Assembly (NCBI RefSeq): GCF_032062105.1
Contig: NW_026921546.1
Coordinates: 62,001-126,000 of the forward strand
Reading direction: 5' to 3'
DNA length: 64,000 bases
From: Saccostrea cucullata
Taxonomy: Eukaryota
Shown here: one piece after another, positions 1-60,876 of the stretch
Position numbering within the stretch: position 1 is the stretch's first letter
Layout of the letters: each line of letters starts with the position of its first letter
The notes under the pieces: generated by a model
What the model was told of the DNA's origin: nothing
Databases searched by the model: none
The model's input: only the letters and a program-made list of their open reading frames with translations
Program-made: the position numbers and the translations under genes

Positions 1-8370
<8,370 letters not shown>

Positions 8371-10197
8371 ATTGGAAACAAGATCACATTGTTACTTACT
8401 TCGTTCGTTTTGATTAACAAGGAAATGTTCCCTTAGGTTTTGTGTGCATTGATTCTAAGACCTGGACGTAGCTGGGAGGAAGGAAATGAAAACTTCACTC
8501 TTTGAATTGTGGCAACGTTTGGATTGACACTAAAACATAATATCTGTAGAATTAAAACATTACTTCAGAGTTAAACCAATGACGAAATGATCGTACAGTA
8601 ACTCACACTTAAAATGAACTCGTTGTAAAATTCTTTTTCACTGAGTCACTTACAATTCTCTAAAGTTCCGGATCTCACGTCAACAGACATTGTTATACTC
8701 ATTTCTACATTGTATTTTGTCATTTTTATAGAAATACAGTCATGTACTCGTATTTTTTATCAAATGCTTATTTGGGTTTATTTTGCTGAATTATAAATAT
8801 TTGCAAATATCTCATTTTTGTTGTCATCTTAAAAGAAATTTCAATTAAAGCAATTAATTCATCTCAATTTACACCACCAAGTGTACTTTTAGTAAGACAG
8901 TCAGGAAAACGTCCCAGGAATAACGTCTTAAATTTGTACGTTGGTGTTATTTGTTACTAAGTCTATGTAGCGGAAACCTGTGACGGAGTGATCCTGTGAT
9001 TAAAGGTTGTAACACACGGAATTGAACATTAATTATTCCTACACGTGTCGAGTTGTATTGACAATGTCGAAAACTGAATGTGATGGATAATGGCATTTGA
9101 CCTTTAACCTTATTGAAAGACCTCGAGGAAATTTTTACACAATTACATAGCCTAATTACTGGAAAAGAGATGTAGAAGCATATATGTAATAAGTTTTATA
9201 AGAATAAACAACGATACTTATACATGTGTCTGATTTTTTTTTTTCTCGTTTCTTTTCTAACTTTATCTGCATTATAATGTTATTGCTTGTATTTAGATAA
9301 CGACAGACCAATGACTTGAATATCTGTTTATCTTCTTATATTTATGACATATATCTTCTGTTGTGTATGCGTAACAAGCATAGTATTATAAATGAATGTA
9401 ATACAAAAATTATTCATTTCATTCAATATGACTCAATAAATTATTTTACTGAAAAACATTCTAGGAAACACTATACTTTGAAGTTATTTTAAAGAGAATT
9501 ATTTAAAGTTCATTAGGTTAATTAAAACCTCCTACCTGGGTTTATCAGAGTTAAGTTGTATAAGCCATCGCTATGTCGTATTGACAGTAGAACCGCGTGT
9601 TACCTTTATCAGTCGACGGTAAATTAAGTTCATCAATATTTGTATAAAATGACCATCATTTCAGCTGTTCAATTGTCGTTATAAGGAGCAGATATTACCT
9701 CTCTCTACTTGATCGTCCCAGTAAATTGGGTCAAGTGTTTTTGCATTACCTCAAAATATTGTGTACTGCTTAACAACATAATGTTAGCATGGTGTATTCT
9801 GTCTCTCTCGTTTCATTTTTAAGAAATATTTTAAGAAAATTTTACTGTTGTAAAACTATTAAGTAAACACTATTAATGGAGCCTCTTTCTTTGTATTTGT
9901 CTGTAATTTAAACTCTTTCACGATATTAATTGTTGAAGTATACACTGTGACGGAGAACACGCACGGAGAACACGCGACTTCCCGCCCACCCTTAAGGGGC
10001 CAATTTACAAGATATACGACCCATCATTTCCGCCCCAACACAACACGTGTTAGGTCTCTTACTCTGTATGTATAAAGGAAAAAGATTCTTTTTATATTGA
10101 TAGAAATGCATTGTTATTTTATTTATAATCTTAGGGACAGAAGATATTTTTTGCATCATAAAAACATATTAAAGTATTTTATTAAAAAAAAAATTTA

Positions 10198-15102: not shown

Positions 15103-16300
15103 ATGTACGCCAAAGTTTCTTTGATTTTATTTTCCGTCTTTGTACCTGAAGTTGTGTTTGGAGCATGTCGGATATATCCACAGAACTTACAGGCGGTTCC
15201 TGGAAAACCTGGTAAATATATTTACAGCGTTCCGAAAAGTTGTACGTTTTTTGTTTCATTTAAAAGCATTGTTGTTTTTTTTTCGTCATAATCAAACATC
15301 TTGTAATCATACGTAAATATATAATTTAAACGCACCTCTATTTTCTGCATTTGCAGTATATTGGTATTGGAGAATAAATTGCAATATTGTCGAATTCTAG
15401 GATAATGAAAATTTTTATGTGGATTATCCCTTTTTTAAATGTACTTTCACTTTCTCCTTGGCAGTATCATTGGACTGTTTATATAAGAACTCTATCCGGG
15501 TGGCCTATCAGGAGACGTACAGAGATCACGTGACCTGTGAGGACTGTTATTGTACAGAGACCGGGCTGGAGTGTTGTGGGTAGGTGTCGCTAATAATTCT
15601 TTGGTTGTCATTTTTAAGGTCTATATATAAAACTTGGACGAGAATCGCCTATTTTACATTTACTCTTTCAATATAAAATTTATACTGAAAACATGATAAT
15701 AATCATATTTACAACTAAATGTAGTTATTTTCAACTCGAGATTGAAATTTGATAAAAAGAAACACACACACACAAAAAGAAAAAAAACAATTGGTATTAT
15801 TTTTTTCTCGGTTTGAAAATAATTCTGTAATCTTCGAGCAATAGAATACATTAGTAAATAACAGAAAGAAATATTTCACAAAATTATGCACTACGTAAAT
15901 GCAGAAAACTTAGTCGACACTACATAGTATGTTTGAATAAAAAAAACTGAAATAATTTTGCAGGTTTGGAAGTAACGCAGGGACAGTTCAAATAGAAGGT
16001 TGCATCGAACAAAGAGATGGTTGTTATTCAAAATTCGTAGATGCCAGCGACCCCACCAAGCCTTGCCGTGCTACCATGACAACAACTCAAGCTCCGGTAA
16101 AACACGAGCTGGACAACCAAATATACAGAAATCCATTCTTGAACAAGGATAACTCACCATTTAATAGCTTCGGGAGCCCTAGCTCACTCTCTGGTCCTGA
16201 TAACTGGACCAATGATGATCTGGACACGAAGTCCCAGAGGCAACGACAATACTATTTGTTTCTGTGGTCCCTCATTAATTATTTCATGAATAACAATTAA
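15103..16300 (+). CDS. Beta-microseminoprotein (MSMB/PSP94)-like secreted protein, copy 1
   Basis: Exons 15103-15211, 15465-15579, 15964-16300 (intron phases 1, 2). Signal peptide, then C...C...TCEDCYCTETGLECC...C...C..FVDASDPTKPC: the 10-Cys PSP94 pattern, plus a ~75-aa C-terminal extension. TATA-like TATATAA near 14951. Confidence 0.85.
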
Positions 16301-17064
16301 TTTATTATTGCGTAATAGAGATATATGAAATCCATTTTCCATTAATTTATTGTGATTTTCTTTATTTATTAAAATAATTTTTGTACATTGTATTTATTTG
16401 TAAATCATAATCTTATTTATTTCTAATCATCTCTACCTGAAACATAAATGTTTTTACAACACTTCATTTTTGTGTGTTTTATTTTTTGCTTTATATAGAA
16501 AAATAAATGAAAGAGAAAGGCAATGATTGTGTTATATTTATTACATTTTTTGAGTTAGTAGCAGAGTGTTGCATGGTGTATTGAACTGCAACTTGTTTAC
16601 TGTTATCCTGTAAAACGAGAAACACCAACAAGTACATAAAGCATTTAGACAATCATTATTCCACACTTGTTCTATAAGAAATTAATTCATGCAGCAGCTC
16701 TGACATATCGTATTTGCATTTGTAAGAAAAGTATCCCATTATTATATGTGACAGAATCCTGAAAATTAACAGGATCTGCAGGCAGGTTATGTGCGATAGG
16801 TGGAGATAACAAGAAAATGTTCACTTACATTGTTTATGCAAAGCAAAGAACTACAAGACATAAAAAATACTTTCTAAACGTTAATTGTACTCGATAAAAA
16901 TTACTTGCAGTTTGTTACATAATATTCATTTACTCATCGTAAGCTGAGGGTTTTAGCGTGGGTGTGTCGAACACTTGACTAACGGGACACTGCGGGGCAT
17001 ACACATCCCAACAACACGGTGGGGCGGATAACAAAACACCGCGGCAGAGAGCCAGAGAACAGCC

Positions 17065-19064
17065 ATGTTCTATCGCTGGTTTGTCTTTGCTGTCCCTCTG
17101 CTGGGTTTCTTGTCTGATTTCTGTGTGGCGTTTGATGTCTGTAATACACTGATTCAGGTGGAACACGATCGAGATGAAAACAATCAAGGTAGGCTAGAAG
17201 AACTCGTATATTTACTTAATCTTGTCAATGGACACTTTAAAAATATTTTGTGAAAATATTCGTATTGTAAACACAAATCTGAAATACAATCGTAAGAAGC
17301 TTGACTTTCTGTTTAACAATAGATAGGCAGTTTTTGGAAATACAGTTTTCCAACAGTCTGTAGGAATATCCATAGGTACCAATTACGTACCATTATTAGC
17401 AGACTTATTTTCATATTCATTTGAAACAGAATAAGGCTAATTCGAAATCTTATACATGAGAAGAAAACACTTGATTTGGCCTTCAAATCGGCATTTAGAT
17501 ATATGGATGTTGTATTATCAATTGTACTAATTGTAAAGTCATTATAACACGCCTGATTGTCTACAGATTACTTTCTTATTTCCGATCATGACATAGAACT
17601 CCTGGCGGATGTGATGCGTGTGTCAGCAGGGGATGCTCACTCCTTCACGGCACCTGATCCCACCTTTGATGTTTTTCCAGTCTCTTTCTTCTTCTTCTGA
17701 TTTGTACTGTTGAAAAGACTTTTGAGCTTGAATACTGTTCGTTACATCTATATATTTGATTGATTGATCCTTACTTTTACATTGAGTCTTTTTATTCTAT
17801 ACACACCACTTCTACCAAAATGAATAAAAGCCTCGCAATTATTTTCACCGCTTGTCTTTGGATACTTAGCGCATAATTCTCGCTTCTAAAGAATTTGTGT
17901 AATAGTTATCATCTTTGTAGAACTTGACTTTAAATGAAAATTATCTTTTTTCTTAGTTTATTAAACTAAATATACCTTGTAATTAGGGACTCCTCATTCC
18001 ATCCAGGAAACACAACTTATAAATGCCTAAAACGCTTTTTTTAAAGAAATGACTATGGACTACATATATTTACAGTCTTGGCCTGCCGGTATCAAATACT
18101 GAAGTATGATCCTTCAGGAGTTTTTCTAAGAGAAACAGTGTCAACACCAGTAAACCAGACGCTATGTCACGTAGTTACTCAGACATTGTCCACATAGTAG
18201 GGATGTCAAAATTGTCAATAAGATATTCGAATATTCGTGTAGGGCGATAAAATAAATATATCTTGCATTATACATGTAATATGTATAGATCTTCACTCTT
18301 TTGTGAAGCAATACACGTTTTATGTCATTATTTTGGAATAAAATTTCAAGTAGATTTTGTAAATGCACTGTTATTATATTCTTGAAATATTTTACAGAAT
18401 GTAGTTACGTTTCAGACATTGTCCACATAGGTATCACTTAAAAGTAATACCTAAGGTCAATTAATTGTCACATTATGATTTTCTTATTCATAAGTTTTTT
18501 TTATTATCATTTACGATATGATGATAACAAAAATATATCAAAAGCCATCAATCAGTATCACCAGACTGCAACATTTAATTAAAATCAATGTTTTCAAGAT
18601 AAGATAATACTGCTCGAAGTACTGTCTGGTTTTACTTATTTCTATGTATAAATCGCACTATACTATTATTTTCTCTTTATAGCCATGTGCCTGAATGGGA
18701 GAGGTATCCAGTGGGAACATTTTTACCACCAGTAGGATGCACCTTTTCACAGAATCTGCAATGTGAATTAGAGACGATATGTCCAAGTATGACAGAGAAA
18801 CAAGCAACAGACACATTATCAAAAACAACAGTTCCTCCTCAGGAAGATACATACAAAGACATTATAAGTACTCCTTTCAAAGTGACAGTAAAAGTAGATA
18901 TCAGTACTCCTTATACTGGTGACGTAACCACGAAGCGACGGGGATCATCTCAAAACAGGGTAGCAACAGAAGCACCGCCATCAACAGGAAATTTTACACA
19001 TGTATCCGTATATATCTTATTTTTGTCATTACTTATGAACATTATTTATGTCATTGAATTGTGA
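17065..19064 (+). pseudogene. Divergent MSMB-like copy 2 with Thr-rich stalk and hydrophobic tail; middle exon appears disrupted
   Basis: Exon 1 17065-17188 (signal peptide, phase 1). Exon 2 starts 18076 (VLACRYQ...) but reaches TAG near 18197. A frameshifted remnant DCNI(Y)QCFQDKI(Y)CS lies at ~18561-18618. Last exon 18683-19064 is phase 2 with 3 Cys, a stalk and a hydrophobic C-terminus. AATAAA ~19102. Confidence 0.55.
17300..17750 (+). mobile_element. Internally deleted Penelope-like (Naiad) fragment in MSMB-like copy 2 intron 1
   Basis: Encodes VFQQSVGI.IGTN..PLLADLF, then jumps to the 3' UTR motif GGCACCTGATCCCACC. Confidence 0.8.
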
Positions 19065-19982
19065 TTGATATGGTAAAACAAGAAGCACCCATGAAAAGGC
19101 AAATAAAACATATATTGAATAGATATTCCATAAGCCCCCAAAAAGGAGTTATAATAGCTCAATAATACCTCTGCTTGACTTGTGTATGATAAAGTGGGAT
19201 ATATCCTTTTAATGAAATCAAAAACCGCAAGTAAATTAACTCAAGGATAGAAATATTGAAATTTTCAAGACAATGTAGCCACATCAATGTTATCAAAAGT
19301 GCTTTTTTTCATGGTTTTATTTGTAAGAAAGATCAATGATCTTCCTAGTGCAATGGGGTTGAGGTCATTTAATGAAAAAGAACTAAAATTTCCAAAGAAG
19401 TATATGCAAGATACTTCTTTTAATTTTGAAGTATATGCAAGATACTCCTAAATTTAAAAACTTCATACTCAAATTTTGTTATATTTGTATGTCTGTCATT
19501 TTTTATGCATTTTCACATGTACTTCCTCATAATATATAAATGCATTCATGTAAATAAATGCAAACTTTTGAGCATGACATTAAAAAAAATTCAAAAATCT
19601 TGAATCAAAAGTTAATTCATGAATGCAATTTTTAAAACAATGAAAAACAAAATATGTACCGCAAGGAAAAGTAATAAAGGGATTCGTCAATTTTGAATTT
19701 CTACAGTAACATACTGATTGGTCGATCCAGTTGCATTTTGTTTTGTAACCAATGGAAGAGTGTTTTTGTTGTTAGTCAAAAGTGAAGTTTATGTCTTTTT
19801 AATGATGTTGATTTAATTAGCATTTTAAAAAAACATTTGCTGTGACATTACGATGTTTTCACACGCTTATTATTTTTTAAGAAAATGTCTTTGATTTGTA
19901 TAATAGATAAAACATAAAACATTCGCTTCAATCACAATATCCATAGAAATGACCAATACATTTTAATGCAATAAATGTAGAA

Positions 19983-20600
19983 AACGAACACTATCAGAAC
20001 TCAGAATTCCTAAAATCAATTCATTTTTTGAAGCAGAGCAAACGCTGACCTCTAAAACATCAGAGGTGGGATGAGGGACCAATGAGGAGTGATCATCCCT
20101 CGCTGTTTGATCCTTGTCGTGTTGATTATCTATTATGTAGATAATAGTCCAGAAATTAGTAGGAACATCTGACTTAATGATTTTATGAGTTTATTTGTTG
20201 ATAACGTCTTTGTATCATTAAATAGAACGAAATGACGATTTTCTTGTTTTTCAGGAACTTGTTTGTCAATAAATTATCTCATAATAGCTACCTACCTACC
20301 TAGTCCTTGTTGCACCCGGAGGCACATAGGGTATCTCATAATATAAATTAAAAAATCTGTAGAACATTCTCTTCCATCCTGAACAAGCTAAGAAAGCCCA
20401 CATGCAGTTGATGGAGGTACATTACTGCATAAGTGAGGGAAATTGACGATTTAAAAATGAAAAAGTCTTTGCATTTATCATTACACTTGAATGTTTATAA
20501 CCATAAGCGCTTTTTTCAGTAAGGTATCCAAATGTTAAACAGATGTGGGTCACACTCTATAGCTAACCGAGTTATATTGCATCGACGTGAGAATGGAATA
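19983..20600 (-). mobile_element. Degenerate Penelope-like (Naiad) 3' fragment
   Basis: GCAGAGCAAAC..GACCTCTAAAACATCAGAGGTGGGAT is the reverse complement of the family 3' tail; further thumb-region remnants follow. Confidence 0.65.
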
Positions 20601-22398
20601 AAGCATTGATTATTGACATTTCGACATTAATTTTTTTTTACTTTATAGTTGAGCGTCACAGCAAGTATATTCTTCTTTTCACGTATAAGATTGTGAAACA
20701 AATTATGTTTCATATTCATTCAATTAAGTCTAAAAACTTTCAAACCTATGTATTTTTCTTCATATATATCATTTTCTCCTACCTTCATTGAGAATTCATG
20801 TCAACAGAAAAAAAAACATGAATATCTCTTTATTTTGAATGTTAAAGAAACCATTCTGCCAAATAAACAAATGTCATATTTCTATATTTTTGTCTCCCTC
20901 TCTCATTTTCCTCCATTTCCAAAGATGAAATTATTGGTTTAACCTCTTCAAATTAAAATTAGATAAAAACATTTATCATTATAATCTTTTCAAATTGAAT
21001 GGAAACGCATATACGATTTACGTTTCAGTTCATTTTTTTTAAACATGCTGTCTGAATTCCTTCAATGAAAATATTTTTAGAAAGACCTTGTCAAATAGCA
21101 GTGTGACCTATCTCATTAAGATCCGTTTTAGAAGCACCTGTACAGTAGACCAATGATGATATAGTTTGCTTTCATTTGTCATAAACTTAACATTAAGTTT
21201 GTACAATGATGAACTGTTCCAATTAGAAGATTGTTGTCTTTTACAAAAAAAATTAATTATCATTTTTAATTACTAGAGAATGCATTTAAATTTTAATTTA
21301 CAATCTAGCCATTCTTTAGCAAGATTGAGTATTCAAAGCAATTAGAAAACAGGAAGTATTCTTTAGAATGTAAAGCATAAAGTTATTATGAAATCTATTT
21401 AATGTACATATCATAAAAAGCAAGCAATAACAAAATTAAGAGAGAAAAAATGTGATAATCAGTTTGAAGCAAATAGCAATTAAGTATTTCATGTAACTTT
21501 TATATCATTTAAAAATTAATTATTTACATTGAATACTCGTAAACTACATGTAGCATATATATGTGATATTCTGACTGAAGTCTCTTTGTAAAGTAAAAAG
21601 GTAGGCCTACATGTATATAATATTTTGTAAAGATTCCTTATAATTGAAATCTGCACTATAATCATCAAAATTTACGTGTAAAGATCATATTCAGCTGAAT
21701 GAAGTTGATAAGTAGGTGGCTTTTAGGTGAGAAAATATAATACTATTGAGAAAAAAATCCTAAGATTATGCTGGTTTTGGTGGGTTTTTTGTTTTTGTTT
21801 TGTTATTGTTGATGTTACTGCAGGCCAGTTTTGATATTGTCCTTATGATAGATAAAATATGGAGATGTGACAAATGAAACTGATTCATATAATTTTCTTC
21901 AGGACGTAAACAAGGAGATTAATTTTGTTCAAGATTGTGTGGTAGTTACAAGACGAATCTGTTATCTTCTTGCACACATTTTATAATCACTTATCAGGTC
22001 CATTTTGTATTTGTTAACTCAGGCCATACAAACTGATGGTGGACGACGAATATTTCGTATTTCAGCAGATCTTGAATCAATATTAAAGAGAAACGCATTA
22101 TTTACATTACTTTGTCATTATGTTCTTGAGGCAATGAAAAAAGGACATGTTTATTAAATAATAATAATATTATTATTGGATAATGATAAAATCATAATAA
22201 ACCTAAAATGTAATAGATATTTAGAAATACAACCATAGAACATATTCAGGGGAACGAAAAAGAACTTACAATGATTAAACAAGAAGGATAATCGCTGCAC
22301 TTTTATGTACCAACATAGAAATGCAGTACCAAACTACTTCTCTATTGGCAACATTATCAATATATCATATTAAAAAAAACTTTGCAGTTTAATTATGA

Positions 22399-23410
22399 AG
22401 AGCATGCTCTACGTATGAACAATTTCTTAAACGAGGTAAATTATTGACAAGCAAGTTGATGAAACAAGAATATCAACAGTCTCGTTTAAAGTCATCATTT
22501 CGTAAATTCTATGGTCGATACAATGACCTTGTCAGCAAATACAATTTATCATTGAGTCAAATGCTGACTGACGTTTTTCATACCGATTGTTAGTCCATTA
22601 TTTATACACTGAATTGACTACGGATTTTTCCCGTTATTTCCTGATCATGACAACGAGCACACGGCGGGTGTGACCGGTCGGCAGGGGATGCTCACTCCTC
22701 CATGGCACCTGATCCCACCTCTGATGTTTCGGAGGTCTGTGTTTGCTCTGCTCTTATTTTGTATATTGTTTAATGGACGTTGAGATTGAATACTGTTCGT
22801 TATCTCCATATCCTTCTTTTACCCTTTTTAAATCATAAAACTAATAATATTGAATGTTGAATAAAGAAAATCACAATCCAGCTATAGGAAAATGTGATTA
22901 CTTTAATATGTCAATCGTCAACTTCCCTTACTTATTCAGCAATATACCTTCATCACCTTCAAACGGAGTTTATATCTCTTTATGGATTCGATACACAAGA
23001 GCATGCTCTACGTGTGTGTTTAATTTTTAAAACGAGGTAAATTTTTGACAATCAGATTGATGAAACAAGAATATCAGTAGTTAGTTTTAAATCATCATTT
23101 CGTAAGTTCTAAGGTCGATACATTGACTTGTCAGCAAATACAATTTCTCATTGAGTCAAATGCCGAATGACGTTTTTCGTACTGATTTGTCAATTCAATA
23201 TTTATACGCTGAATTGACAACGTATTTTCCGTTATTTCGCGATCATGACAAGGAGTGCAGGGCGAGTGTGACAGGTGGGCAGAGGATTCTTACTCTTCCG
23301 TGGCACCTGATCCCAACTCTGATGTTTTGGAGTTCTATGTTCGATCTGCTTCCATTTTGTGACGTTTAATGGACTTTTGAACTTGAATACTGTTCGTAAT
23401 CTCTTTATGA
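22399..23410 (+). mobile_element. Two tandem Penelope-like (Naiad) 3' ends (22399-22817 well preserved; ~22890-23410)
   Basis: RACSTYEQFLKRGKLLTSKLMKQEYQQSRLKSSFRKFYGRYNDLVSKYNLSLSQMLTDVFHTDC* followed by the complete 3' UTR, then a second more diverged copy. Confidence 0.9.
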
Positions 23411-24951
23411 TTCACTTACTTAATTACATGTACTTGATAATTACACAGAAATTCTTTAAACATTCCGGTAAAAGCTGCCATGCTGAGAAATAAAATAACA
23501 TGTCTTAATGCTTAAAAAATCCTCAAATTGACAACAGGACATATTTGTTCACAGTAAAAATACAATGATATTAGGGTCATTGGGTACAATGCGCCAATTA
23601 AGTGCATGCATTTTACCTTAAAGCCTAATACATTGAAGAAAATAACAAATTTACTTTCAAATGATTCTTCAATTTTAAATTTGAGGAAAAGAAGAAGGAA
23701 TTGAATTTCTGAAGACATAAATGTGTGTGTCACTAGGAATAAATGGGAAAAAAGTAACAATTTTCTGTGGTAATCCTAAATGCTACAATATAATAATGTT
23801 TTTATATGAAGATATTTTAATATTTTTTATACACTGTAGTTTGGATGGCGTTAACTAAATATACTAAATATACATCTGGCATTTCAAATCATCAGATGCA
23901 AATATAAACATGCTGTTCCAATCATGCAATTTATATCAAATTTAACAGTTACTGCTGTTATCAGCAGCTCGCGATTAAATGCTAGTTGGTACATATACGA
24001 TTTTTGCGTGTTCTTCACTTTAGTCTGGTGCTTAAATTTGAATGATTTTAATTATATACAGCACATGCAGCAGGAGACCCATAAATCTGGGATCCTGGAA
24101 ATCGAACCAAAGGAGTACGATGAAACCAGATGAGGTGTTCTGGAAATTTTGTTTCGTGGTTATTTTATGTTACAGCTCTAACTAGTCAGCATATTTGAAT
24201 TTTCTTTTTTGAATACTAGTATAAAAAATATTTTGTCTGAAGATTATATGTAAACTCTATATAAATGTTGAAGATAAAATCAGTTACATTTTTTGTAAAA
24301 TATATATATATATCTTCTTTGAAAGGAATGTTTGTGCATTTATTTTATTTGTGAAACAAATATATCTTAAGCTTACATGTAACATTACAAACACTGGACC
24401 TAAAGGTATACAATTACACGATCTGATCTCCAGTATAATACTATAGTCATTATCTTTAGTGTCCATTGCTGTCTTTAAGTCCTATACAAGACTGTACGAT
24501 TATATCGCTCATCTGAAAGTCAGTTTTACTTCCTACCTCAGTGTAATCGTATTCTCAGCAATTCAATGTTTTTAAAGTCAATTAAGTACTTTTAATCTAA
24601 AATGTTAAGATATGCACAATGTCCAGAGGTATCTGTTTTGAATTAAACATTTCAGATAGTCTTTACGTCTGCAAGGAATTGAAAAGAAATAAATTAACAT
24701 CTTTAAAAGTCATTATTAATAATTCAATTTAAACGTAAGAAAGATGCACTGAGTTCTGCATTTTTGCGATTTTTTACGACTTAATATATTTAGATTTATG
24801 TTCAATTTCAAAGGTTTGATAAACACATAGTGTACATCTCACCTATTTTCATATTCAAACCAAGCGTATCCTAACGTGCAAGAGAAATGATCGGCGGCAG
24901 GGGCCAGTCCAGGGATTGACACATCACTGAGCTAGGCTTCTGCACAGAAGC

Positions 24952-27872
24952 ATGGCGAACTCTCTGATCTGTCTGGTCTTGGTTATGTCTGTGTACTTCC
25001 TGGGGTCCATAGAATGTTCTTGTAAAATGTACACGGAAGGAGCAGAAGGGTATAACGTGGTGAGAGATGACAAAGGAGGTAAGTCTATAAAGTACATCTC
25101 GTAAAACTCACATAGGATAGGGCTTCTCTGGGAAAAAATCTCTTTTATTTCTGTTACATGAAATAGGTTTATTTTATCAAAATGAGATGAGATTCAAAAA
25201 AAATTTTGTTCATCGAAAGTATTTAATTGTCACTATATTACGAAAACAAACATGTATTTTTTACATTACTTTTTATTTTATAATGCAATGTTTTAAACAT
25301 TGTTGGTTTATATCAATACATTACTTATGACGATTTACAAGCACAATGGTAAAATCTTCATCTGTTTTTTATTTATGTGAAATGGTTTTAATTTTTATAC
25401 TTCATTGCAAGATCATAAAGTTGCAACGAGACTGATTTTTCTGAAGTTTACGGATATATAATATGTGAGTGAAGATGTAAAAAGAAGTATGGTATACATG
25501 AAAATCCTAAGACAGAGGCTGATACATAAAAAATCTGTTATTTAAAGTAGTGTTAATTATTATCCCATAAAGTATTCAGTTTAACAATCGAATTCAACAA
25601 AAACACAATGAATAGTGCATTAATTTGCTGGGTTTTGATAGATAATGCAGAGGTCAAATGAGACGCAATCAGTGATTTTTCACTGAAAAAAAGAGAATAA
25701 TATTTGCATATGTGCATTTTGAATCTCGTGGGAAAACTAAATCTGAGATCTTAACTGCCTGTATATAACAATTGATTTTTATAAGGGTAAACATTCAATA
25801 AATCTTTTAATCATTTTAAAACTTTGCTTTGGTAAAGAAATAATAGATTAGAAATAACTTAGAGTCTGCTAAACGTCTCTCAATTCAACATATATTACAT
25901 AGACTTTGCAGAAAAATATCAAAATAAGAATGACCATTTCCTCGAATATCATATTTCTTAACCAGTGTCCCTTATTTTTGCTTGAAATTTATTTTATGAA
26001 GTTTCATTAAGGCCAATTTGGGGTCAAACGTATCCTTGAAAAATCTTTCAATATTAAAGGAATGCTGATTTTATACAAATAACATCATTTAACACTGACA
26101 TACAGAGCAAATGATTTTTTTACAAGCATAATAAATTTGAATAAGACAAAAACTCCCTTTTTTCAGACTTATTCCTTTTGTATATCTTGACATTAGGTTT
26201 TATCAAAGTCGGTGACAATTAATAATTCTAGTCCCCGTGAGGTAAACTCCTCTGATAAGAAAACGGACAGCGCGCCAAGTGAAACTCTGATGAAGACGAA
26301 TGATAATTAATAGTGTTGTTAAAACTTCAGAGATGGGCTATTTGGGCAATGTAAAGTGAGAAATAGCGTCTGTGAAGGTGCAAACAACAAAAAGGCAATA
26401 TCCATTAACTTAATACTTATCTATACATTGAAGCAGCTCACAACCAACAACATTCTGTATAAATATGTGTAATGCTACTTTTTTGATGCTTTTATTTAAT
26501 AAAAGCGAACGTATGTTATGCATGTAAATGTAGTTTATAAGCTTCATCATAACTGATTTGCCATTGGCCCTAGAGCATTATATCAAAGGCTATAAAATAG
26601 AAACTACCTGTAGTTCTCCACTAAACATCCTCTTTATCTGGCAGAAGTCTTAATTGTTTGTGGGTGTGCTCTAAATAATCTTTTGACACAAGCTTTTCAT
26701 AATGGTCATTAAAGTTCTGAACAAAAGACAAAAAGTTAATAGATTTTATTCTCCAACCAACAGGGACCTTTTAAATAGCGAGATTTGTCCTGGTAGAAAA
26801 ATCATAAGATTACACATGTATCTCATTGGGATAAAAAAGTTAACCATTATTCTGTTTTTCCAGTGAAGTTATGTATTTACGTGGACGAGGCTGGGAGAAG
26901 TGTGGAGATAAAAGTTAATAGTACTCACCGCCACCCCACAGACTGCGAGGACTGCACCTGTCAGCCCTCGGGGGACCTACACTGCTGTATGTAAGTATAC
27001 AGAGGGGGCACCTGTCAGTCCTCCGGGGGTCTACACTGCTGTATGTAGGTAAACAGTGGAGAGAAGAATGAAGGTTACTGATGCTGTAACTCTCGATACA
27101 AAATCAAAGTTGAGTGTTATCGCCATCATTTTAAATTAATATAAGAAGCCAACTCATCATTTTACTTCTTAACAAAATACATGAAATTCAATCTCGTATT
27201 CAATCTGATTAAAATCATATGCTCGATCCGCTCCTTTTTTTTTTTTTTTTTGTTTTTGGTTTGTTTTGTCGTTGTTGGTGTCGTCGCTACACGAGGTAGC
27301 GACAATTAAAAAAAAAGGAACGGATCGAGGATATGATTTTAATCAGATTACTCTCGTATTATGATATTTAACGTTAAAGAGTATTATAACAAAGATTCAT
27401 AGTGCACGATAAAAACTAAACGTAAAAATTAATAACGTATCTCTTGTTGACGCGTTCTAACAATTACAACTCTATCTTTGAATAATGTTGTCTTTATTTT
27501 GAAATTCCCAATGCAATGATGCTTTATGTTTTTGTCATATAATAATTATTAATATTCTTGTTTCCTGATAGGTATGGAGTTAAGGCTGGTAAAATATTAT
27601 ATCCCTCGACCTGTACACTAGTTAAAGTCGGCAACTGTGATCACAAACTTGTTTTAAAATCTGACGAGAAAACCCCCTGCCTACAGGGACCAATTTACCC
27701 TCCCTCTACAACAGTATCGGTTCATTCCGATACCCAAGTCTCCAATCAAAGCACTCCCACAGGTTTACAACGAGATCCGAAATCACAAGGAGGGGGCGGG
27801 GCAGCGGAGTCCCTCAGGTGTTTCCCGCCATTTGTGTTGCTTTTTGGTATTATGTCTGTAATTTTGTATTAG
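24952..27872 (+). CDS. Beta-microseminoprotein (MSMB/PSP94)-like protein, copy 3, with Ser/Thr stalk and predicted GPI-anchor signal
   Basis: Exons 24952-25078, 26864-26990, 27572-27872 (phases 1, 2). Signal peptide; SC...LC...TDCEDCTCQPSGDLHCC...STC...GNCDHKLVLKSDEKTPC; tail GGGGAAESLRCFPPFVLLFGIMSVILY*; AATAAA ~27965. Confidence 0.88.
27201..27351. mobile_element. Small foldback MITE with 9-bp TSD (Mutator-like)
   Basis: TIR AATCTGATTAAAATCATAT.CTCGATCCG.TCCTTTT; TSD TCTCGTATT at 27192-27200 and 27352-27360. Confidence 0.85.
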
Positions 27873-28793
27873 ATTTCTTTTTACTTCTGTATTGTAATTG
27901 ATAAATTTTGTTCGCTTTTTTTAAATCTATGATACAGATGCATTCGATTTTGATAATGTTTTTGAATAAATATGTATAGTTTTTTAATGTTTAAAAGACA
28001 TAAAATATGAACAAAATCTTTAGTTTGTATACTTATATTTAGGAAAATATACACATAATTCTAATTTTTGTTGAAAGGAAAAATGATAATTTTTTTATTA
28101 GATTTGAATGATGGTTTTATCATATTATATAAATAGATGTACCTTTACTGCAATATGCTGTTTAAATGATCAAATGATATTGTATATAAATCACCTTTAA
28201 CCTTTTGTTGTATATATTAGGATTTTAAAAATTACAATTATTATTGTTAATACGTTTCATTTCCATGGCTAGATAAATTTAACGACAAAGATTTGATAAT
28301 TTATAAACATGATAAAGAATGATTTGATAATTTTGTCATAATTCACTTATTATTTGTAGCTTTTTCATATAAAAAAAATTGTGAGTTATGAAAGAGATTT
28401 GTTGTTTTATTTTTGTACTTTGTGAATTGTTTTTATTTTACATACCGTATGATAAATGAGTTTTATTACCCTGGTATTCTAGGATATCTTTAAATATATA
28501 GAATAACACTTGAAGCACAATATAGAAGTAAAAAACAACCCTCAATTGTTAATGTCAACTTTGTGAAGTTTTATGTCCAGAAGAAATATATTAGCCATAA
28601 AAAAGACGATATTCAAATTTGCTGCCTATGCCCATGCTTATATGTACATGTATAATTGTATTTTCAATTTAATGCAAGTAAGGTCCCGACAGCTTCGATA
28701 CTATTTTTCATATTAGAAAGTTAATACAAAAGCAGATGAAAAAATCCCTGAAAGCTTCTTTCATTGAGGATATAATGCATATTAAATAAAAAT

Positions 28794-35700: not shown

Positions 35701-36607
35701 ATTGAGCACCGTGTAGAGACTGAACTCTCCTTAAATTAAGCCTTGTATTTGTTTTATTCTTTCAAAGATTTTATGCTTGTCATTTTAAAAAAATATGCTT
35801 TTTAGAATTTGATATTTTTACATTAGATTAATTCTTGCTTAAATTTTGGAAATCAGTTAATACTTATCTTGGATTTCTCTCTCGAGCAACAATAGTAACG
35901 TATAAATAAATACATGTAAGTATTTAAATAACGCAATTGCAATCCAAATCAAGACAAAAAAGAAACAACAAACAAAACAAAACAATAACTTTTGATGGCT
36001 TCAAAAAACCCTTTCTCATAATATTATTTAAATGTACGCACAATATTGAAAATAATGATCAAGAAATTATGAATATATATTTTGATGAACGTTTGGGGAG
36101 GCTTTCTTTCAATTAGTTGGAACTGTGTAAACATCGCTTTAATCTGAATAACATTAAATTATGGTATTAGAAAAATTTATTTCATACAATCCAAATTATT
36201 TTGTAAGTCTCCTTTAAGCGATTCAAAGACCTTTGCACAGTGTAACCGGTGGACGTGTTTTGCAGTAGGTGGATAAAACGTGATAATGTCTTCACTTTAT
36301 ATTTCTTGGAATCGTCATTAACTATCTAAAGTAATTATTTTCATTTTTCTTAAACCATCATAGATAAATCTTGATCATAGCAAAATAAATATTGATTTCA
36401 ATCTGTTGATCTTATAATTAAATATTAAAGCTATTTACACAAAGGGATAATTAGAAAATTCAACAATATAATGAACACATGACGAATCATTTTCAAAAAC
36501 CATGCTATGAAATAAAATTGAAATTTAAAGGGTAAAGATAAACATAAATTTTACTATGTCTTATAATTTTGCTACAGATGTTAATCTGATCAAATTCTAT
36601 TTGGAAG

Positions 36608-37816
36608 ATGATGAATGCAACAACTGTCCCCTTTTCTGCAGCAGCAACATCAGAGGTGAGCGCCACAGAAACAAAAACTCAAAGGTCAGGTGACGTCATA
36701 AATGCAGTCTATCCACCAATTCTCATCTTTGTTGGAGTCACGTGTAATGTACTCATCATACTGGTCATGCGCACAAAACAGTTTTGTAGACAATCAACTT
36801 CCGTCTTCATGACAACCAGTGCTGTTAATGACGCTCTAAGTTTGGTGATATCCATGACAACCCACTGGCTTTATGTTAGTTTTGATGGGATTTACTATCG
36901 AAATGATGTAAAAGGCATCTGTAAGTTCCTGGATTTTTACGGCTGGGGGAATTGTGACTTTGGTATTCTAATCACCAGTATGATGACCGTAGATAGGGCC
37001 TTAGCAATGAAGTTTCCCTTAAGGTTTAAAACAAAATCAATCACGCGAGCAAGAATTGTAGTGTTGGTGACGGTCATGATTGTTGTCGCCAAAGAATTCC
37101 ATTTCCTGATTGGATCTAACATGGTTCCAGAATCTCGGAAAGAAAGGCTTTGTGATGTTTTTCCAGAAACAGAGTCATACAAATTTTTCTGGAAGCAGGT
37201 TTGGCCTTGGCTGCATCTTGTATATCTGTCTGTGTGTTTCATCATCATCATTGGGAGTAACTCCGTTCTATTACTTCAGATACTGAAATCGTCAAATTTT
37301 CAGAAAATATTCAAGAAAACTAGCAAAAATTCCAAATTGCTTGATCAAAACAAATTCAATTACAGTACTCGGATGAGAAAACAATTGCATACCATAGCAC
37401 CTATGTTGATTGGAGAGTCCTTAGTGCTGTTATTGTTAACTTTCCCTTTCTCTGTACAATTATCAATATCAGGGTACAATCCGGAATTTTACAGTTCTCC
37501 AGATATGAGTCTATTATTCTCTGTGACGTTTTACATGCTTTACACCAATAAATGTGTTACATTTTTTGTTTACCTGGTGACTGGCGGTAAATTTAGAAAA
37601 TCACTGAAGCAGATATTCAGAAGATGGTTTAAAGGAAAGAACAGCGTGAGGAAGAGTCAGTTTAACAATTTTTCTAAGTGGTATTCAATAAAAGGAGATT
37701 TACAGACAAAGAAGCCCATCTGTAGGACCCCGAGCAGCGAGGTCTGGAACACGGGGAGCTCATTTTCATCGGACATTCAGACAGAGACAAGCTATGTTGT
37801 GTCCACACATCTGTAA
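36608..37816 (+). CDS. Rhodopsin-family (class A) GPCR, FMRFamide/sex-peptide-receptor-like or molluscan expanded chemoreceptor type
   Basis: 402-aa intact ORF with 7 hydrophobic segments; G..CN (TM1), AVND (TM2), C at start of TM3, DRA..M.FPL, LLTFP (TM6), N..VTFFVY..TG.KFR..L (TM7/H8). Acceptor TACAG at 36577; possible 5' UTR donor at 33405. Confidence 0.92.
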   Translation: MMNATTVPFSAAATSEVSATETKTQRSGDVINAVYPPILIFVGVTCNVLIILVMRTKQFCRQSTSVFMTTSAVNDALSLVISMTTHWLYVSFDGIYYRNDVKGICKFLDFYGWGNCDFGILITSMMTVDRALAMKFPLRFKTKSITRARIVVLVTVMIVVAKEFHFLIGSNMVPESRKERLCDVFPETESYKFFWKQVWPWLHLVYLSVCFIIIIGSNSVLLLQILKSSNFQKIFKKTSKNSKLLDQNKFNYSTRMRKQLHTIAPMLIGESLVLLLLTFPFSVQLSISGYNPEFYSSPDMSLLFSVTFYMLYTNKCVTFFVYLVTGGKFRKSLKQIFRRWFKGKNSVRKSQFNNFSKWYSIKGDLQTKKPICRTPSSEVWNTGSSFSSDIQTETSYVVSTHL

Positions 37817-41971: not shown

Positions 41972-44702
41972 GAAGTGAAACATATGGAGATAACGAACAG
42001 TATTTAAGATCAAAATTCCATAAAACAATACAAAACAGGAGCAGAGCAAACCTGGACCTCCAAATCATCAGAGCTTGGATCAGGTGCCATGGAGGAGTGA
42101 GCATTCCCTACTGACCGGTCACACCCGCTGTGTGCTCCTTGTCATGATCGGGAAATAACGGAAAAATCCGTCGACAATTCAATATATTGATAGTGGACTA
42201 ACAATTAGTATGAAAAACATCAGTCAGCATTTGACTTAATGATAAATTGTATTTGCTGATAAGGACATTGTATAGACCATAGAACTTACGAAATGACTTT
42301 AAACGAGACTGCTGATATTCTTGGTTCATCAACTTGTTTGTCAATAACTTACCTCGTTTTAGAAATTGTTCATACGTAGAGCATGCTCTTGCGTATCGAA
42401 TCACCTCAGATGTATACACTCCGTATGCATGTGATGAATGTATATTGCTACATAAGTAAGGGAAGTTGACAATAGAAAAGTTAAAGTCAGCATGTTTATC
42501 ATATAGCTTGGTTGTTAGATTACCATTAAGTAAAATATCCAAGCAAAAAACAAATTTGTCAGACTCTGTGGTATCTTTAATCTCAAGCTCTCCAGGATAT
42601 ATCGTATCGACGTAGGAATGGAAATTACCATTGTTAATTGACAATACGTCGTCGATATATCTAAATGTCGAGTTGAAGACCACAGCAAGTGTTTTTCTTT
42701 TCTTTTTACTCATAAGATTTTGCACGAATTCTGCTTCATATGAATACATAGATATTGTCATTGAGAAACTCAAGCATCTTTTTGATGTCATCTTCAGAGT
42801 GCTTGTGTGTGCAATCAGAATGTGTTCTAACAAAATGATTTTCAAATGACCAATGACCAGGTAAGTAAATTTACCAGTTCCATTTTTATTGAAAAAGCAG
42901 CTGTCAATAATATCAAAAAGCCAGGTCTTTAATTTTTGTGGGGAATGGTTGTGTATAAAGTTGAAAAGTCTTACGTTTTTAAGCTGTTGATTTTGGTAAA
43001 GTCTTGTGATTTCAAATAGTCCAAAAGTTCCTTTTTTGAGTATCCACAGCTGATTCACACCACTTCTTGAATATCTTGTTGCACAGCACTCTTGACGTTT
43101 TTCCTTCACTACTGCCAATAGCTTAGTGAGGAGTAACGAAAGAGGCTTTGTTGAACATTTACTGGAACCCGCAATGTATCTTTTTTTTAAAGGATTCTTA
43201 TGAAGTTTCGGAATCCAATATATATAGGGTAGTTCAAATTCATTTTGGCTCTGTGGAATATTAAATATATTAAAACTGACATGATTTTGAAGAATTTCTA
43301 CCTTAGAAAGGGAAGTATGAGTATAGTACGATTACCACTTGTAGAATTATATCCAAGTTCTTATAAAATACAATTATATAATGAGCCTTACAAACGAAGA
43401 CAATGTTGTTACCTGCTTTGTCGGCAGGGACCAGTACGTACTGATCATGTAATCTATCTAATTTTTTTTTCACTTTTGGATTATTGAACACAGAAGGATA
43501 GATGGTTTTCATATTGCCCCTCAATCTTTTAATACGCGACTTTTACATGGATCTGGTACATTTAATCCATTCTGACAAGGTGTCAACGTCTTTTTTTGAT
43601 ATCTGGCCCATCGTCTGGCGTAATCTTCAACAGAATCCATAATATTTATGAAATTCCAACGCCAGTTCAAGGATTGGGGTTCCCTATATTTAGGACCTTT
43701 TAAAATAAGTTATCTAAGGTCCTCATTATGAACTATATTTACGTCATCTGTAATAACGTGTCCAGCAGGGCTATAGTTATAGGGCGAAGAAGAACATGAG
43801 CACGATGGAGGATTATATTTCAGATACTCGGTATCCGGTTAATGTAAAGTTTTTTTGTACTTGAAAAGTTTGGAAGCAATGGTCGATGTATATTTGTAGG
43901 AAATACAAGGTGTAGTCTTTAACTTGAAATATGGTGGAATACAAGACTGGACTCTTTTTTAATTTAGAATATTACTGATATTAACTGCGTCGATTCCTTT
44001 ATTGGCATATTGAAGTTTAAGGAAAACGCGGTTTGTTTTCGCTGCATTTTCTTCAGTAAAACATGCGGGTTTAAAAAACCTATTATTTGCAATATCCATA
44101 ATCACAGATCTGAGCCTATATTCTGGTAACGAGGAATCAAAAATTGGACTTTCCTAGGCCTTTTCAAAAAGACTATTTAAAAGTTTCAAAGGGACAGAGT
44201 AAATTAAGTTTGGTGCAAATATGATGTAGACCTAACTGTTGATTTCTATAAGGTAGTAATGAATCAAAAGAGACATCGTGTATTGCAGGTTTATTGTAAG
44301 ACCGATGCCCATGAGTGCGCTTACGTCTCTGTGTATGGTTAAAAAGTCCCATCACATTTACATTGTTACACTGTGGACTAGAAAGATTTCCAACACTATC
44401 GACATTGTCATTACATCCCTAGGGAAAGACTGTTCCTAGTTTTCTAACCCAAAATTCTTCTCATTGTCTACGGAGAGGTGTACTCAGCGACGGACTATTT
44501 GTGTTGTGTGGTGATAAATCTTTTGGAGAATTCTAACTTTCATTGACAAAATAGAATGATCAGGTAAATTAAAATGTTTGTAAAAAAGCTGCTGACCACC
44601 ATGATTTATTTGAAATCGATGACCTCATATTCTTTTAGTTAGTGATCCCTTGGTATCACCAACATAAACAAGTCCACACATATTACATTCTATTCCATAG
44701 AC
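41972..44702 (-). mobile_element. Near-full-length Naiad-type Penelope-like element: N-terminal GIY-YIG endonuclease, CxC linker, C-terminal RT (decayed)
   Basis: From 44702 downward: VYGIECNMCGLVYVGDTKGSLTKRI*GHR...YKHFN...EEFWVRKLGTVFP*GCN (GIY-YIG with CCHH); PPSCSC at 43802-43794; KGPKYREP; RT FRYIDD ~42660; ORF ends TDVFHTNC* at 42198. Multiple stops and frameshifts; the GTN..PLLADL motif is deleted. Confidence 0.92.

Positions 44703-56368: not shown

Positions 56369-60876
<4,508 letters not shown>

What the first reader, a model, noticed from the sequence alone, without database searches (positions are those of the whole stretch)
15103..27872. Tandem cluster of beta-microseminoprotein-fold genes converted to stalked, membrane-anchored forms
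Seen: three co-oriented genes with matching intron phases (1, 2), signal peptides and PSP94-type Cys spacing, but very low mutual identity. Copy 3 ends in a Ser/Thr/Pro stalk, small residues (GGAA) and a hydrophobic terminus with no cytoplasmic tail. Copy 2 has a longer Thr-rich stalk and similar tail. Copy 1 has a polar extension and a short aromatic tail. Established: vertebrate MSMB is a small, soluble, fast-evolving secreted protein that binds CAP/CRISP proteins, and snake small serum proteins of this fold neutralise toxins. Inference: a diversified cell-surface (GPI) plus soluble set of MSMB-fold binders acting in gamete recognition, mucosal immunity or toxin capture. The ORF track misses them because the exons are short.
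Basis: partly seen in the sequence, partly recalled or inferred. Interest (0 to 1): 0.7.

Follow-up and report, generated by a model that had tools for sequence, protein, structure and literature searches.

The report
Membrane-tethered microseminoproteins in an oyster
Three neighbouring rock-oyster genes encode relatives of a small secreted binding protein known from semen and snake blood, and two of them carry a stalk and a predicted lipid-anchor signal that would display them on the cell surface, a form we did not find described for this family.

Summary
The three genes are real. My exon models translate letter for letter to RefSeq 'uncharacterized' Saccostrea cucullata proteins, with intron phases 1 and 2. 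Copies 1 and 3 are beta-microseminoprotein (MSMB/PSP94) relatives: ten cysteines, a profile that hits only MSMB-family structures, and a confident copy-3 model whose best matches are MSMB3, SSP-2 and PSP94. Copies 2 and 3 end in a stalk plus a textbook GPI-signal pattern, kept in Ostrea, Magallana and a pearl-oyster relative while the letters drift; 0 of 39 other search hits pass. Corrections: copy 1 fails the GPI pattern and resembles other bivalve relatives with a short terminal helix. Copy 2 is only weakly shown to be MSMB-like (eight cysteines when intact), and here its exon 2 is cut short at a repeat insertion, leaving six. Mollusc MSMB-like genes and tandem clusters are published; a GPI-anchored form was not found in my paper searches. 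Anchoring, tissue and ligand are untested. Verdict: new variant of a known family, moderate interest.

The parts
15103..15211 (+). Copy 1 exon 1: signal peptide and first cysteine (phase 1 donor)
   Evidence: joined exons equal P0011, RefSeq LOC134260290
15465..15579 (+). Copy 1 exon 2: C2, CxxCxC, CC (phase 2 donor)
15964..16300 (+). Copy 1 exon 3: C8-C10, polar extension (16070-16246), short conserved terminal helix (16247-16297), stop
   Evidence: fails the GPI pattern
17065..17188 (+). Copy 2 exon 1: signal peptide and first cysteine (phase 1 donor)
   Evidence: joined exons equal P0003, RefSeq LOC134260292
18076..18196 (+). Copy 2 exon 2 as RefSeq-type model, cut short at its 3' end: 18 residues with two cysteines of the intact form are replaced by 9 unrelated ones
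   Evidence: missing piece not found in the window or among the genome matches
18171..18197 (.). Left copy of a ~30-nt local duplication flanking the repeat insertion
   Evidence: its 19-nt core occurs only twice in the genome, both here
18198..18403 (.). ~206-nt end fragment of a dispersed repeat (478 first-look candidates, 40 scored, 78-91% identity); hAT-like start is recalled, not tested
18401..18430 (.). Right copy of the ~30-nt duplication, followed by a GT donor-like site
18683..19064 (+). Copy 2 exon 3: three cysteines, Thr-rich stalk (18786-18980), predicted GPI signal (18981-19061, omega candidate S-T-G), stop
24952..25078 (+). Copy 3 exon 1: signal peptide and first cysteine (phase 1 donor)
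   Evidence: joined exons equal P0008, RefSeq LOC134260276
26864..26990 (+). Copy 3 exon 2: C2, CxxCxC, CC (phase 2 donor)
27009..27050 (+). Imperfect tandem duplicate of the 3' end of copy 3 exon 2 with its donor, inside intron 2
   Evidence: an in-frame stop lies between the two donors (frame ends at 26991)
27572..27872 (+). Copy 3 exon 3: C8-C10, S/T/P stalk (27684-27794), predicted GPI signal (27795-27869, omega among G158-A163), stop

Best explanation
This is a three-gene oyster cluster of beta-microseminoprotein-family genes in which copies 2 and 3 are predicted to be GPI-anchored cell-surface proteins that likely capture an extracellular protein partner, while copy 1 is likely secreted. 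Shown: exon structure, ten-cysteine core in copies 1 and 3, stalk and GPI-type tail in copies 2 and 3, and the damage to copy 2 in this assembly. Predicted: MSMB fold of copy 3, disordered stalk. Inferred mechanism: the signal peptide takes the chain into the ER, GPI transamidase swaps the last 21-26 residues for a glycolipid, and a probably O-glycosylated stalk lifts the disulfide-locked beta-sheet head off the membrane. There its free N-terminal edge strand would pair with a strand of a partner protein, as PSP94 does with CAP/CRISP proteins, so that the partner is held or neutralised at an epithelial or gamete surface instead of in fluid. A CAP-superfamily protein is my first guess for the partner (about 0.3); the confidence given is for the architecture and surface display. 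Copy 1 keeps the commoner bivalve design, a head plus polar extension plus short amphipathic end helix, and is inferred to be released into mucus or matrix. Copy 2 is a much-diverged paralogue that lost one disulfide pair; the allele in this assembly is probably non-functional.
For: Family: profile of 35 relatives hits 6 of 177,635 PDB sequences at E<=10, all MSMB family (SSP-2 2.5e-11 to chicken MSMB3 1e-7). Copy 3 model: pLDDT 85-97 in each block of ten over residues 21-120, under 50 over most of the stalk; Foldseek ranks 1-4 are MSMB3, SSP-2, PSP94 (E 1.3e-4 to 3.9e-3); VIA-align best Z 7.2, rmsd 2.9, 79 aligned, MSMB3. Pfam PSP94 is reported for 25 of 51 proteins scanned, 3 over the cut-off; UniRef auto-labels the Magallana orthologue of copy 3 'Beta-microseminoprotein'. 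Anchor: the published pattern (small omega, non-Pro +1, small +2, polar spacer, hydrophobic end; passages of PMC10491789 and 10.1101/838680), applied as my own rule, passes 3 of 3 copy-2 and 5 of 5 copy-3 sequences tested and the Pinctada relative, against 0 of 3 copy-1 sequences, 0 of 4 other family genes of this genome, 0 of 39 other hits and 25 of 610 random frame ends. The copy-3 tail keeps its character at 21-33% identity to Magallana and Ostrea while the core keeps 53-56%, as sorting signals do. 14 of 15 listed members of the Magallana cluster end in the hydrophobic tail; whole proteins on ~1-kb Logan contigs (P0004, P0059, P0064 and others) are inferred to be spliced transcripts. Copy 2: same phases; cysteines at -1 and -10 from the exon 2/3 junction as in copy 3, and the two missing (C4, C6) form one disulfide in MSMB3 (PMC8167871 passages); profile-profile E 8e-4. 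Binding through the N-terminal strand: PMC8857485 passages.
Against: No trained GPI or signal-peptide predictor and no experiment; the rule is my own and 4% of random frame ends pass it. The hydrophobic runs of copy 3 are about 13 residues, under the 15-20 of the quoted pattern. One older Magallana model (K1Q413, P0062) uses another C-terminus, and one S. echinata copy-2 record (P0005) has a shortened tail (13-residue-window hydropathy 1.06). None of the three window proteins reaches Pfam's PSP94 cut-off (copy 1 14.7 of 22 bits; copy 3 and intact copy 2 no hit; window exon pieces no hit). TM-scores by target are only 0.51-0.61 and Z 7.2 is in the range the tool calls middling; tick CirpT1 is tied within 1 Z unit (6.8). 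Copy 2's model is poor (mean pLDDT 58.7), was built on the family alignment, and gives no Foldseek hit at E<=0.001 (CirpT1 0.033, MSMB3 0.31); hhalign probability 24%. The residue matching PSP94's CAP-contacting Phe is Ile, Met, Asn or Arg in copies 1 and 3 and their orthologues, so the CAP contact is not conserved by letter.
Confidence: 0.6

Rival explanations
1. Copies 2 and 3 are secreted, not anchored: their hydrophobic ends are longer versions of the short terminal helix of copy 1 and of other bivalve MSMB-like proteins, used for self-assembly into mucus, shell or egg-coat matrix.
For: All 4 other family genes whose last exon I read in this genome, and several bivalve hits, have a long extension and a short hydrophobic or amphipathic end helix; squid beta-MSP sits in the egg tunic without an anchor (passages of PMC4500399 and PMC3268785).
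Against: Those helices score 0.15-1.22 on a 13-residue window against 2.1-3.1 for copies 2 and 3, and only the latter pair a small-residue omega triplet with a long apolar end in every orthologue tested by the rule. Copy 1's tail is conserved by letter (17 of 17; 9 of 17), copy 3's only by character.
Confidence: 0.15
2. The hydrophobic end is kept as a single membrane-spanning helix (type I protein without a cytoplasmic tail) rather than swapped for GPI.
For: Copy 2 has an 18-22-residue uncharged run and both models end in a helix.
Against: At most a few residues follow the run and no basic stop-transfer cluster; small-residue omega triplets lie 7-16 residues upstream in every orthologue tested; copy 3's run is about 13 residues, short for a stable span.
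Confidence: 0.1
3. Anchored as above, but the partner is not a CAP protein: the heads bind complement-like thioester proteins, as tick CirpT1 binds C5, or microbial surfaces, and so shield the oyster's own cells.
For: CirpT1 is rank 5-6 in Foldseek and rank 2 in VIA-align for copy 3 (Z 6.8, rmsd 4.1, 80 aligned) and rank 1-2 in Foldseek for copy 2; a clam beta-microseminoprotein transcript fell 3-fold after Vibrio challenge (table row in PMC4234419); chicken MSMB3 is described as antibacterial (abstract of PMC8167871).
Against: A shared fold shows no function; by sequence the profile finds MSMB proteins and not CirpT1; the copy-2 model is low-confidence.
Confidence: 0.2
4. Copy 2 is not an MSMB relative but another small disulfide-rich surface protein (VWC/FN1/CirpT-like) that happens to lie between two MSMB genes.
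For: 5.6-6.0 bits against the outside profile, reached by 6-9 of 500 shuffles; branch length 5.55 in the tree; Atlas finds no named look-alike; VIA-align best Z 4.5 over 45 residues.
Against: Same orientation, three exons, phases 1 and 2; cysteine offsets from the splice junction match copy 3; the lost cysteines are a disulfide pair, and the same pair is lost in relative P0042; the best VIA-align row is MSMB3 (rmsd 1.8).
Confidence: 0.2

Closest known systems
Beta-microseminoprotein MSMB/PSP94 (Pfam PF05825; PDB 3IX0, 2IZ3, 1XHH; chicken MSMB3 6RWC)
   Same: Signal peptide, ten cysteines in the same order, two-domain beta fold, mature N-terminus one residue before the first cysteine (copies 1, 3); tandem duplication and low paralogue identity.
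   Different: Described as ~10-kDa, non-glycosylated, soluble miniproteins (PMC8167871 passage). Here: 60-95-residue C-terminal additions, predicted GPI signal in two copies, an N-glycosylation sequon in the core of copies 2 and 3, three coding exons like MSMP rather than four (PMC3268785 passage), below the Pfam cut-off.
Snake small serum proteins, SSP-2 (PDB 6IMF chain B) and the tandem SSP array
   Same: Best sequence-profile hit (E 2.5e-11); tandem array of divergent paralogues with transposon fragments and truncated members (PMC6609765 passages).
   Different: SSPs circulate in serum and bind venom proteins; no anchor; no ligand is known here.
Invertebrate MSMB-like proteins: mollusc ESTs (PMC3268785), squid Loligo beta-MSP egg-tunic pheromone, sea cucumber 11-gene PSP94-like cluster (PMC5638244)
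   Same: Same family in molluscs; tandem clusters; display on an extracellular surface in squid.
   Different: The passages read describe secreted proteins and mention no stalk or lipid anchor; supplements and figures were not read.
Tick complement inhibitor CirpT1 (PDB 6RPT, 6RQJ)
   Same: Similar predicted fold, next after the MSMB entries.
   Different: Not found by the sequence profile; salivary and soluble (recalled); its paper was not held.
Ly6/uPAR three-finger family, e.g. CD59 versus secreted members (recalled analogy)
   Same: A small disulfide-rich binding head that exists in soluble and GPI-anchored versions.
   Different: Unrelated fold; used only as a model of how the system may work, not tested.

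Membership tests
MSMB/PSP94 family | Ten conserved cysteines in the order C..C..CxxCxC..CC..C..C..C (copies 1 and 3) | tested here: met
   10 mature cysteines, gaps 2,1,6-7,0,13-14,6-7,13 in the conserved part; aligned to SSP-2 and PSP94 through the profile
MSMB/PSP94 family | Ten conserved cysteines (copy 2) | tested here: not met
   8 in intact relatives, 6 in the window allele. Members with 8 are known (marsupial USM), so this lowers but does not exclude kinship
MSMB/PSP94 family | Sequence-profile match to solved members (copies 1 and 3) | tested here: met
   6 hits, all MSMB family; 67 and 62 bits against an outside profile, 0 of 500 shuffles
MSMB/PSP94 family | Pfam PF05825 at its curated cut-off of 22 bits | tested here: not met
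   copy 1 14.7 bits; copy 3 and intact copy 2 no hit; window exon pieces no hit; Ostrea orthologue 20.5; 3 of 51 proteins over the cut-off. Most invertebrate relatives also fall short
MSMB/PSP94 family | Two-domain beta fold (copy 3) | tested here: met
   predicted model, TM by target 0.51-0.61
MSMB/PSP94 family | Two-domain beta fold (copy 2) | tested here: inconclusive
   mean pLDDT 58.7, model built on the family alignment; MSMB3 E 0.31, Z 4.5
MSMB/PSP94 family | Two-domain beta fold (copy 1) | not tested
   both folding jobs went to copies 2 and 3
MSMB/PSP94 family | Disulfide pairing 1-7, 2-5, 3-9, 4-6, 8-10 | not testable with these tools
   model coordinates are not returned; indirect support from pairwise cysteine loss in copy 2, P0042, P0022, P0044
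MSMB/PSP94 family | N-terminal signal peptide, secretory pathway | tested here: inconclusive
   hydrophobic N-terminal helix in all three; no predictor available
MSMB/PSP94 family | Binding to CAP/CRISP proteins | not tested
   no whole oyster CAP domain was in hand; 4 partial exon matches only
GPI-anchored proteins | Omega site, small omega+2, polar spacer, hydrophobic end, no cytoplasmic tail (copies 2 and 3) | tested here: met
   own rule after PMC10491789; hydrophobic run at the short end for copy 3
GPI-anchored proteins | Same pattern (copy 1) | tested here: not met
   13-residue-window hydropathy 0.68-1.10; only a rare Thr omega candidate
GPI-anchored proteins | Actual GPI attachment, PI-PLC release | not testable with these tools
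   needs experiment

The most novel reading that the evidence does not exclude
Oysters and pearl oysters turned the soluble microseminoprotein binder into a GPI-tethered surface trap, a CD59-like shield or a gamete-surface receptor, that catches CAP-family proteins or complement-like proteins directly on the animal's own cells; it would be the first membrane-bound branch of the MSMB family, with a segregating broken allele of copy 2 as a natural knockout.
Probability: 0.3. Interest if true: 0.65.

Novelty: new variant of a known kind. Interest (0 to 1): 0.42.

Why it matters
MSMB proteins are known as small soluble binders whose physiological job is still debated. A lipid-anchored branch, kept across oyster genera, would show that the fold can serve as a surface receptor or shield, and it makes the ligand question easy to test: an anchored head marks its own tissue and can be used for pull-down. 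Orthologues exist in the farmed Pacific, eastern and flat oysters, where immune and fertilisation surface proteins are of practical interest. The databases list nearly all these records as uncharacterized, and the RefSeq model of copy 2 appears to rest on a damaged allele.

Tried and rejected
No RNA holder was listed for window 24900-28000, so no reads were laid; this says nothing on expression. Copy 3 head with copy 1 head in complex prediction: no answer (scores 0.12 and 0.01, mark 0.34; my alignments were not used); neither support nor evidence against. Pfam PSP94 over the own genome listed 5 matches, none in this window; the three over the cut-off look like VWC repeats. Single-sequence PDB search with the copy-3 orthologue gave only an Evasin at E 2, rejected. 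Atlas feature searches gave leads under 0.9 only (DGCR2-like for copy 3, nothing named for copy 2). A seeming fourth copy at minus-strand 34530 is a chance 8-residue match; the family profile finds no further copy in 2,868 window frames or 1,821 frames of 40 kb of flanks (best flank E 0.03-0.05). Trees did not settle the order of events: copy 2 is a very long branch; copy 1 + copy 3 + Pinctada as one clade was not rejected in the quick tree (p-AU 0.52) but appeared in 0 of 200 bootstrap trees of the careful tree; Pinctada's GPI-tailed protein is nearest copy 1 (41%; SH-aLRT 88 in the quick tree, unresolved in the careful one). Intact copy-2 DNA was not found in metagenome contigs (135 pattern matches, none confirmed), so the lesion could not be read against an intact allele. 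dN/dS was not computed (no orthologue DNA). Two of the 49 profile hits (P0043, P0056) were dropped as false, two (P0017, P0020) as fragments of the Magallana orthologue, before the 0-of-39 count. Paper searches listed no paper on these loci or, by title and abstract start, on an anchored MSMB; only listings were seen for most, broad searches showed 15-20 of many, and subscription journals are not covered. Cummins 2011 and the CirpT paper were not held.
Full report
Observation. The window holds three + strand genes between 15103 and 27872. Copy 1 has exons 15103-15211, 15465-15579, 15964-16300; copy 2 17065-17188, 18076-18196, 18683-19064; copy 3 24952-25078, 26864-26990, 27572-27872, with GT-AG introns in phases 1 and 2. 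The joined exons equal stored proteins P0011, P0003 and P0008, RefSeq 'uncharacterized' proteins of Saccostrea cucullata. The family profile finds no fourth copy in the window or in 40 kb of flanks.

Family. With the cores of copies 1 and 3 as a three-sequence profile, 49 proteins were found among 1.84 billion at E<=0.001; those looked up by name (10 of the 47 new ones) are from oysters, pearl oyster, mussel, scallop, Solemya, Lingula and a rotifer, three clusters carrying a 'beta-microseminoprotein' label. Pfam PSP94 is reported for 25 of 51 proteins scanned but passes its cut-off in only 3; copy 1 scores 14.7 of 22 bits, copy 3 and intact copy 2 nothing (the window's exon pieces nothing). 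A 35-sequence profile hits 6 of 177,635 PDB sequences, all MSMB family. Against a profile of 28 relatives from outside this locus copies 1 and 3 score 67 and 62 bits, 0 of 500 shuffles reaching that. The copy-3 model is confident over the core, disordered over the stalk and ends in a helix; Foldseek ranks MSMB3, SSP-2 and PSP94 first, then tick CirpT1, and VIA-align gives MSMB3 Z 7.2 (rmsd 2.9, 79 aligned), CirpT1 6.8, SSP-2 5.4. Copies 1 and 3 are therefore members; copy 1 was not folded.

Copy 2. Intact relatives (P0004, 217 aa, on a 1,056-base Logan contig; P0009 and P0005 from S. echinata) have eight mature cysteines. Two sit at -1 and -10 from the exon 2/3 junction, exactly as C7 and C5 of copy 3; the missing ones are C4 and C6, which are bonded to each other in chicken MSMB3 (PMC8167871 passages). 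Sequence scores are marginal (6-9 of 500 shuffles reach them; hhalign E 8e-4, probability 24%) and the model is poor and leans on the family alignment. I put kinship at about 0.8. In the window, exon 2 matches the intact form only up to the third cysteine; the next 18 residues with two cysteines are absent from the window and from the genome matches. At that point lies a ~206-base end fragment of a dispersed repeat (478 candidates, 40 scored) between two copies of a ~30-base locus-specific segment. The RefSeq-type model keeps the frame through a donor at the repeat's edge and yields a six-cysteine head. I infer a damaged allele; an assembly error is not excluded.

Anchors. GPI signals consist of a small omega residue, a non-proline, a small omega+2, a polar spacer and a hydrophobic end (passages of PMC10491789 and 10.1101/838680). 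Applied as my own rule, this passes the window's copies 2 and 3, two more copy-2 and four more copy-3 sequences (S. echinata, Ostrea edulis, Magallana gigas, one unnamed) and a Pinctada protein; it fails copy 1 in three species, four other family genes of this genome and 39 of 39 other hits; 25 of 610 random frame ends pass (a stricter version gave the same split, and 22 of 610). P0005, a copy-2 record with a shortened tail, and P0006, with a read-through end, were not run through the rule. The copy-3 tail is conserved in character at 21-33% identity while the core keeps 53-56%; copy 1's tail is conserved by letter (17 of 17, 9 of 17). Fourteen of 15 listed members of the Magallana cluster (45 members) end in the hydrophobic tail; the exception is an older model. 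Whole proteins called on ~1-kb Logan contigs are most simply spliced transcripts; that is inference.

Copy 1 and the wider family. Elsewhere in the genome at least four more family genes (three on contig C14465, one on C14010) have a long low-complexity extension and a short end helix, as do several mussel and scallop hits. Extensions are thus ordinary for bivalve members; the GPI-type end is what is special, and among the sequences seen it is confined to this locus's orthologues and one pearl-oyster protein whose head is nearest copy 1 (41%). Whether copy 1 lost an ancestral anchor or anchors arose twice is unresolved.

Mechanism. PSP94 binds CAP proteins at 6-70 nM through its first strand, and SSP-2 binds a venom CRISP in what is described as likely the same way (PMC8857485 passages). 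A C-terminal stalk and lipid anchor leave that N-terminal edge free, so the simplest reading is a tethered trap or receptor for an extracellular protein. The genome encodes CAP domains (4 matches at E<=0.001 of 62 candidates), but the contact residue is not conserved by letter, and CirpT1's closeness keeps complement-like partners open. Cores are more conserved than stalks, which fits a stable partner better than an arms race, although copy 3 has changed faster than copy 1 between genera.

What is known. Mollusc MSMB-like genes were reported in 2011 (PMC3268785, section 10 and passages); an 11-gene tandem cluster in sea cucumber (PMC5638244 passages); a tandem snake array with transposon fragments (PMC6609765 passages); a squid egg-tunic pheromone (seen only as cited in PMC3268785, PMC4500399, PMC9759900); single mentions in clam and mussel expression studies. 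Searches for the accessions gave no paper; searches joining the family with GPI or membrane anchoring listed nothing on an anchored member (listings only). Supplements were not read and could hold expression rows for these loci. The Ly6/CD59 analogy, the hAT-like label and O-glycosylation of the stalks are recalled or inferred, not tested.

Verdict. Observation partly confirmed, interpretation partly supported. A new variant of a known family: predicted GPI-anchored, stalked MSMB-fold proteins conserved in oysters. Interest 0.42; the anchor needs one simple experiment, and the ligand is open.

Noticed in passing
window 550-8391 (- strand) and L034/L035: Class C GPCR gene (ANF_receptor, NCD3G, 7tm_3) left of the cluster, with a second similar copy in the adjoining 20 kb: a tandem pair.
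   Followed up: partly
window 36590-37813 (+): Single-exon rhodopsin-family GPCR, about 400 aa.
   Followed up: partly
window 57235-57534 (+): Protein kinase exon; it looks like an ERK/MAPK exon (recalled).
   Followed up: partly
window 42201-43331 (-), 22400-23400, 17300-17760: Fragments of a reverse-transcriptase-type repeat, several copies, one inside copy 2's first intron; no Pfam hit at E<=0.001 for the longest frame. Class recalled, not tested.
   Followed up: no
window 26955-27050: The 3' end of copy 3's exon 2 with its donor is duplicated in tandem at a 54-base spacing; both copy 2 and copy 3 thus show short duplications at the end of exon 2.
   Followed up: partly
L032 1677-2462 and 6461-9166, L043 189-2028 (contig C14465); L042 1363-2316 (contig C14010): At least four more MSMB-like genes with 100-150-residue low-complexity extensions and a short Met/Leu-rich end helix; this tail type recurs in mussel and scallop relatives and has no explanation here.
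   Followed up: partly
window 16220-16297 (copy 1 tail): A basic stretch before the end helix is conserved in Crassostrea virginica; it could be a convertase site that releases the terminal peptide. Speculation.
   Followed up: no
P0005 versus P0009 (S. echinata copy 2 records): One of two records has a shortened hydrophobic tail, a possible soluble or defective variant; with the damaged allele here, copy 2 may be decaying or polymorphic.
   Followed up: no
fold searches of copies 2 and 3: Tick complement inhibitor CirpT1 ranks beside the MSMB structures.
   Followed up: partly
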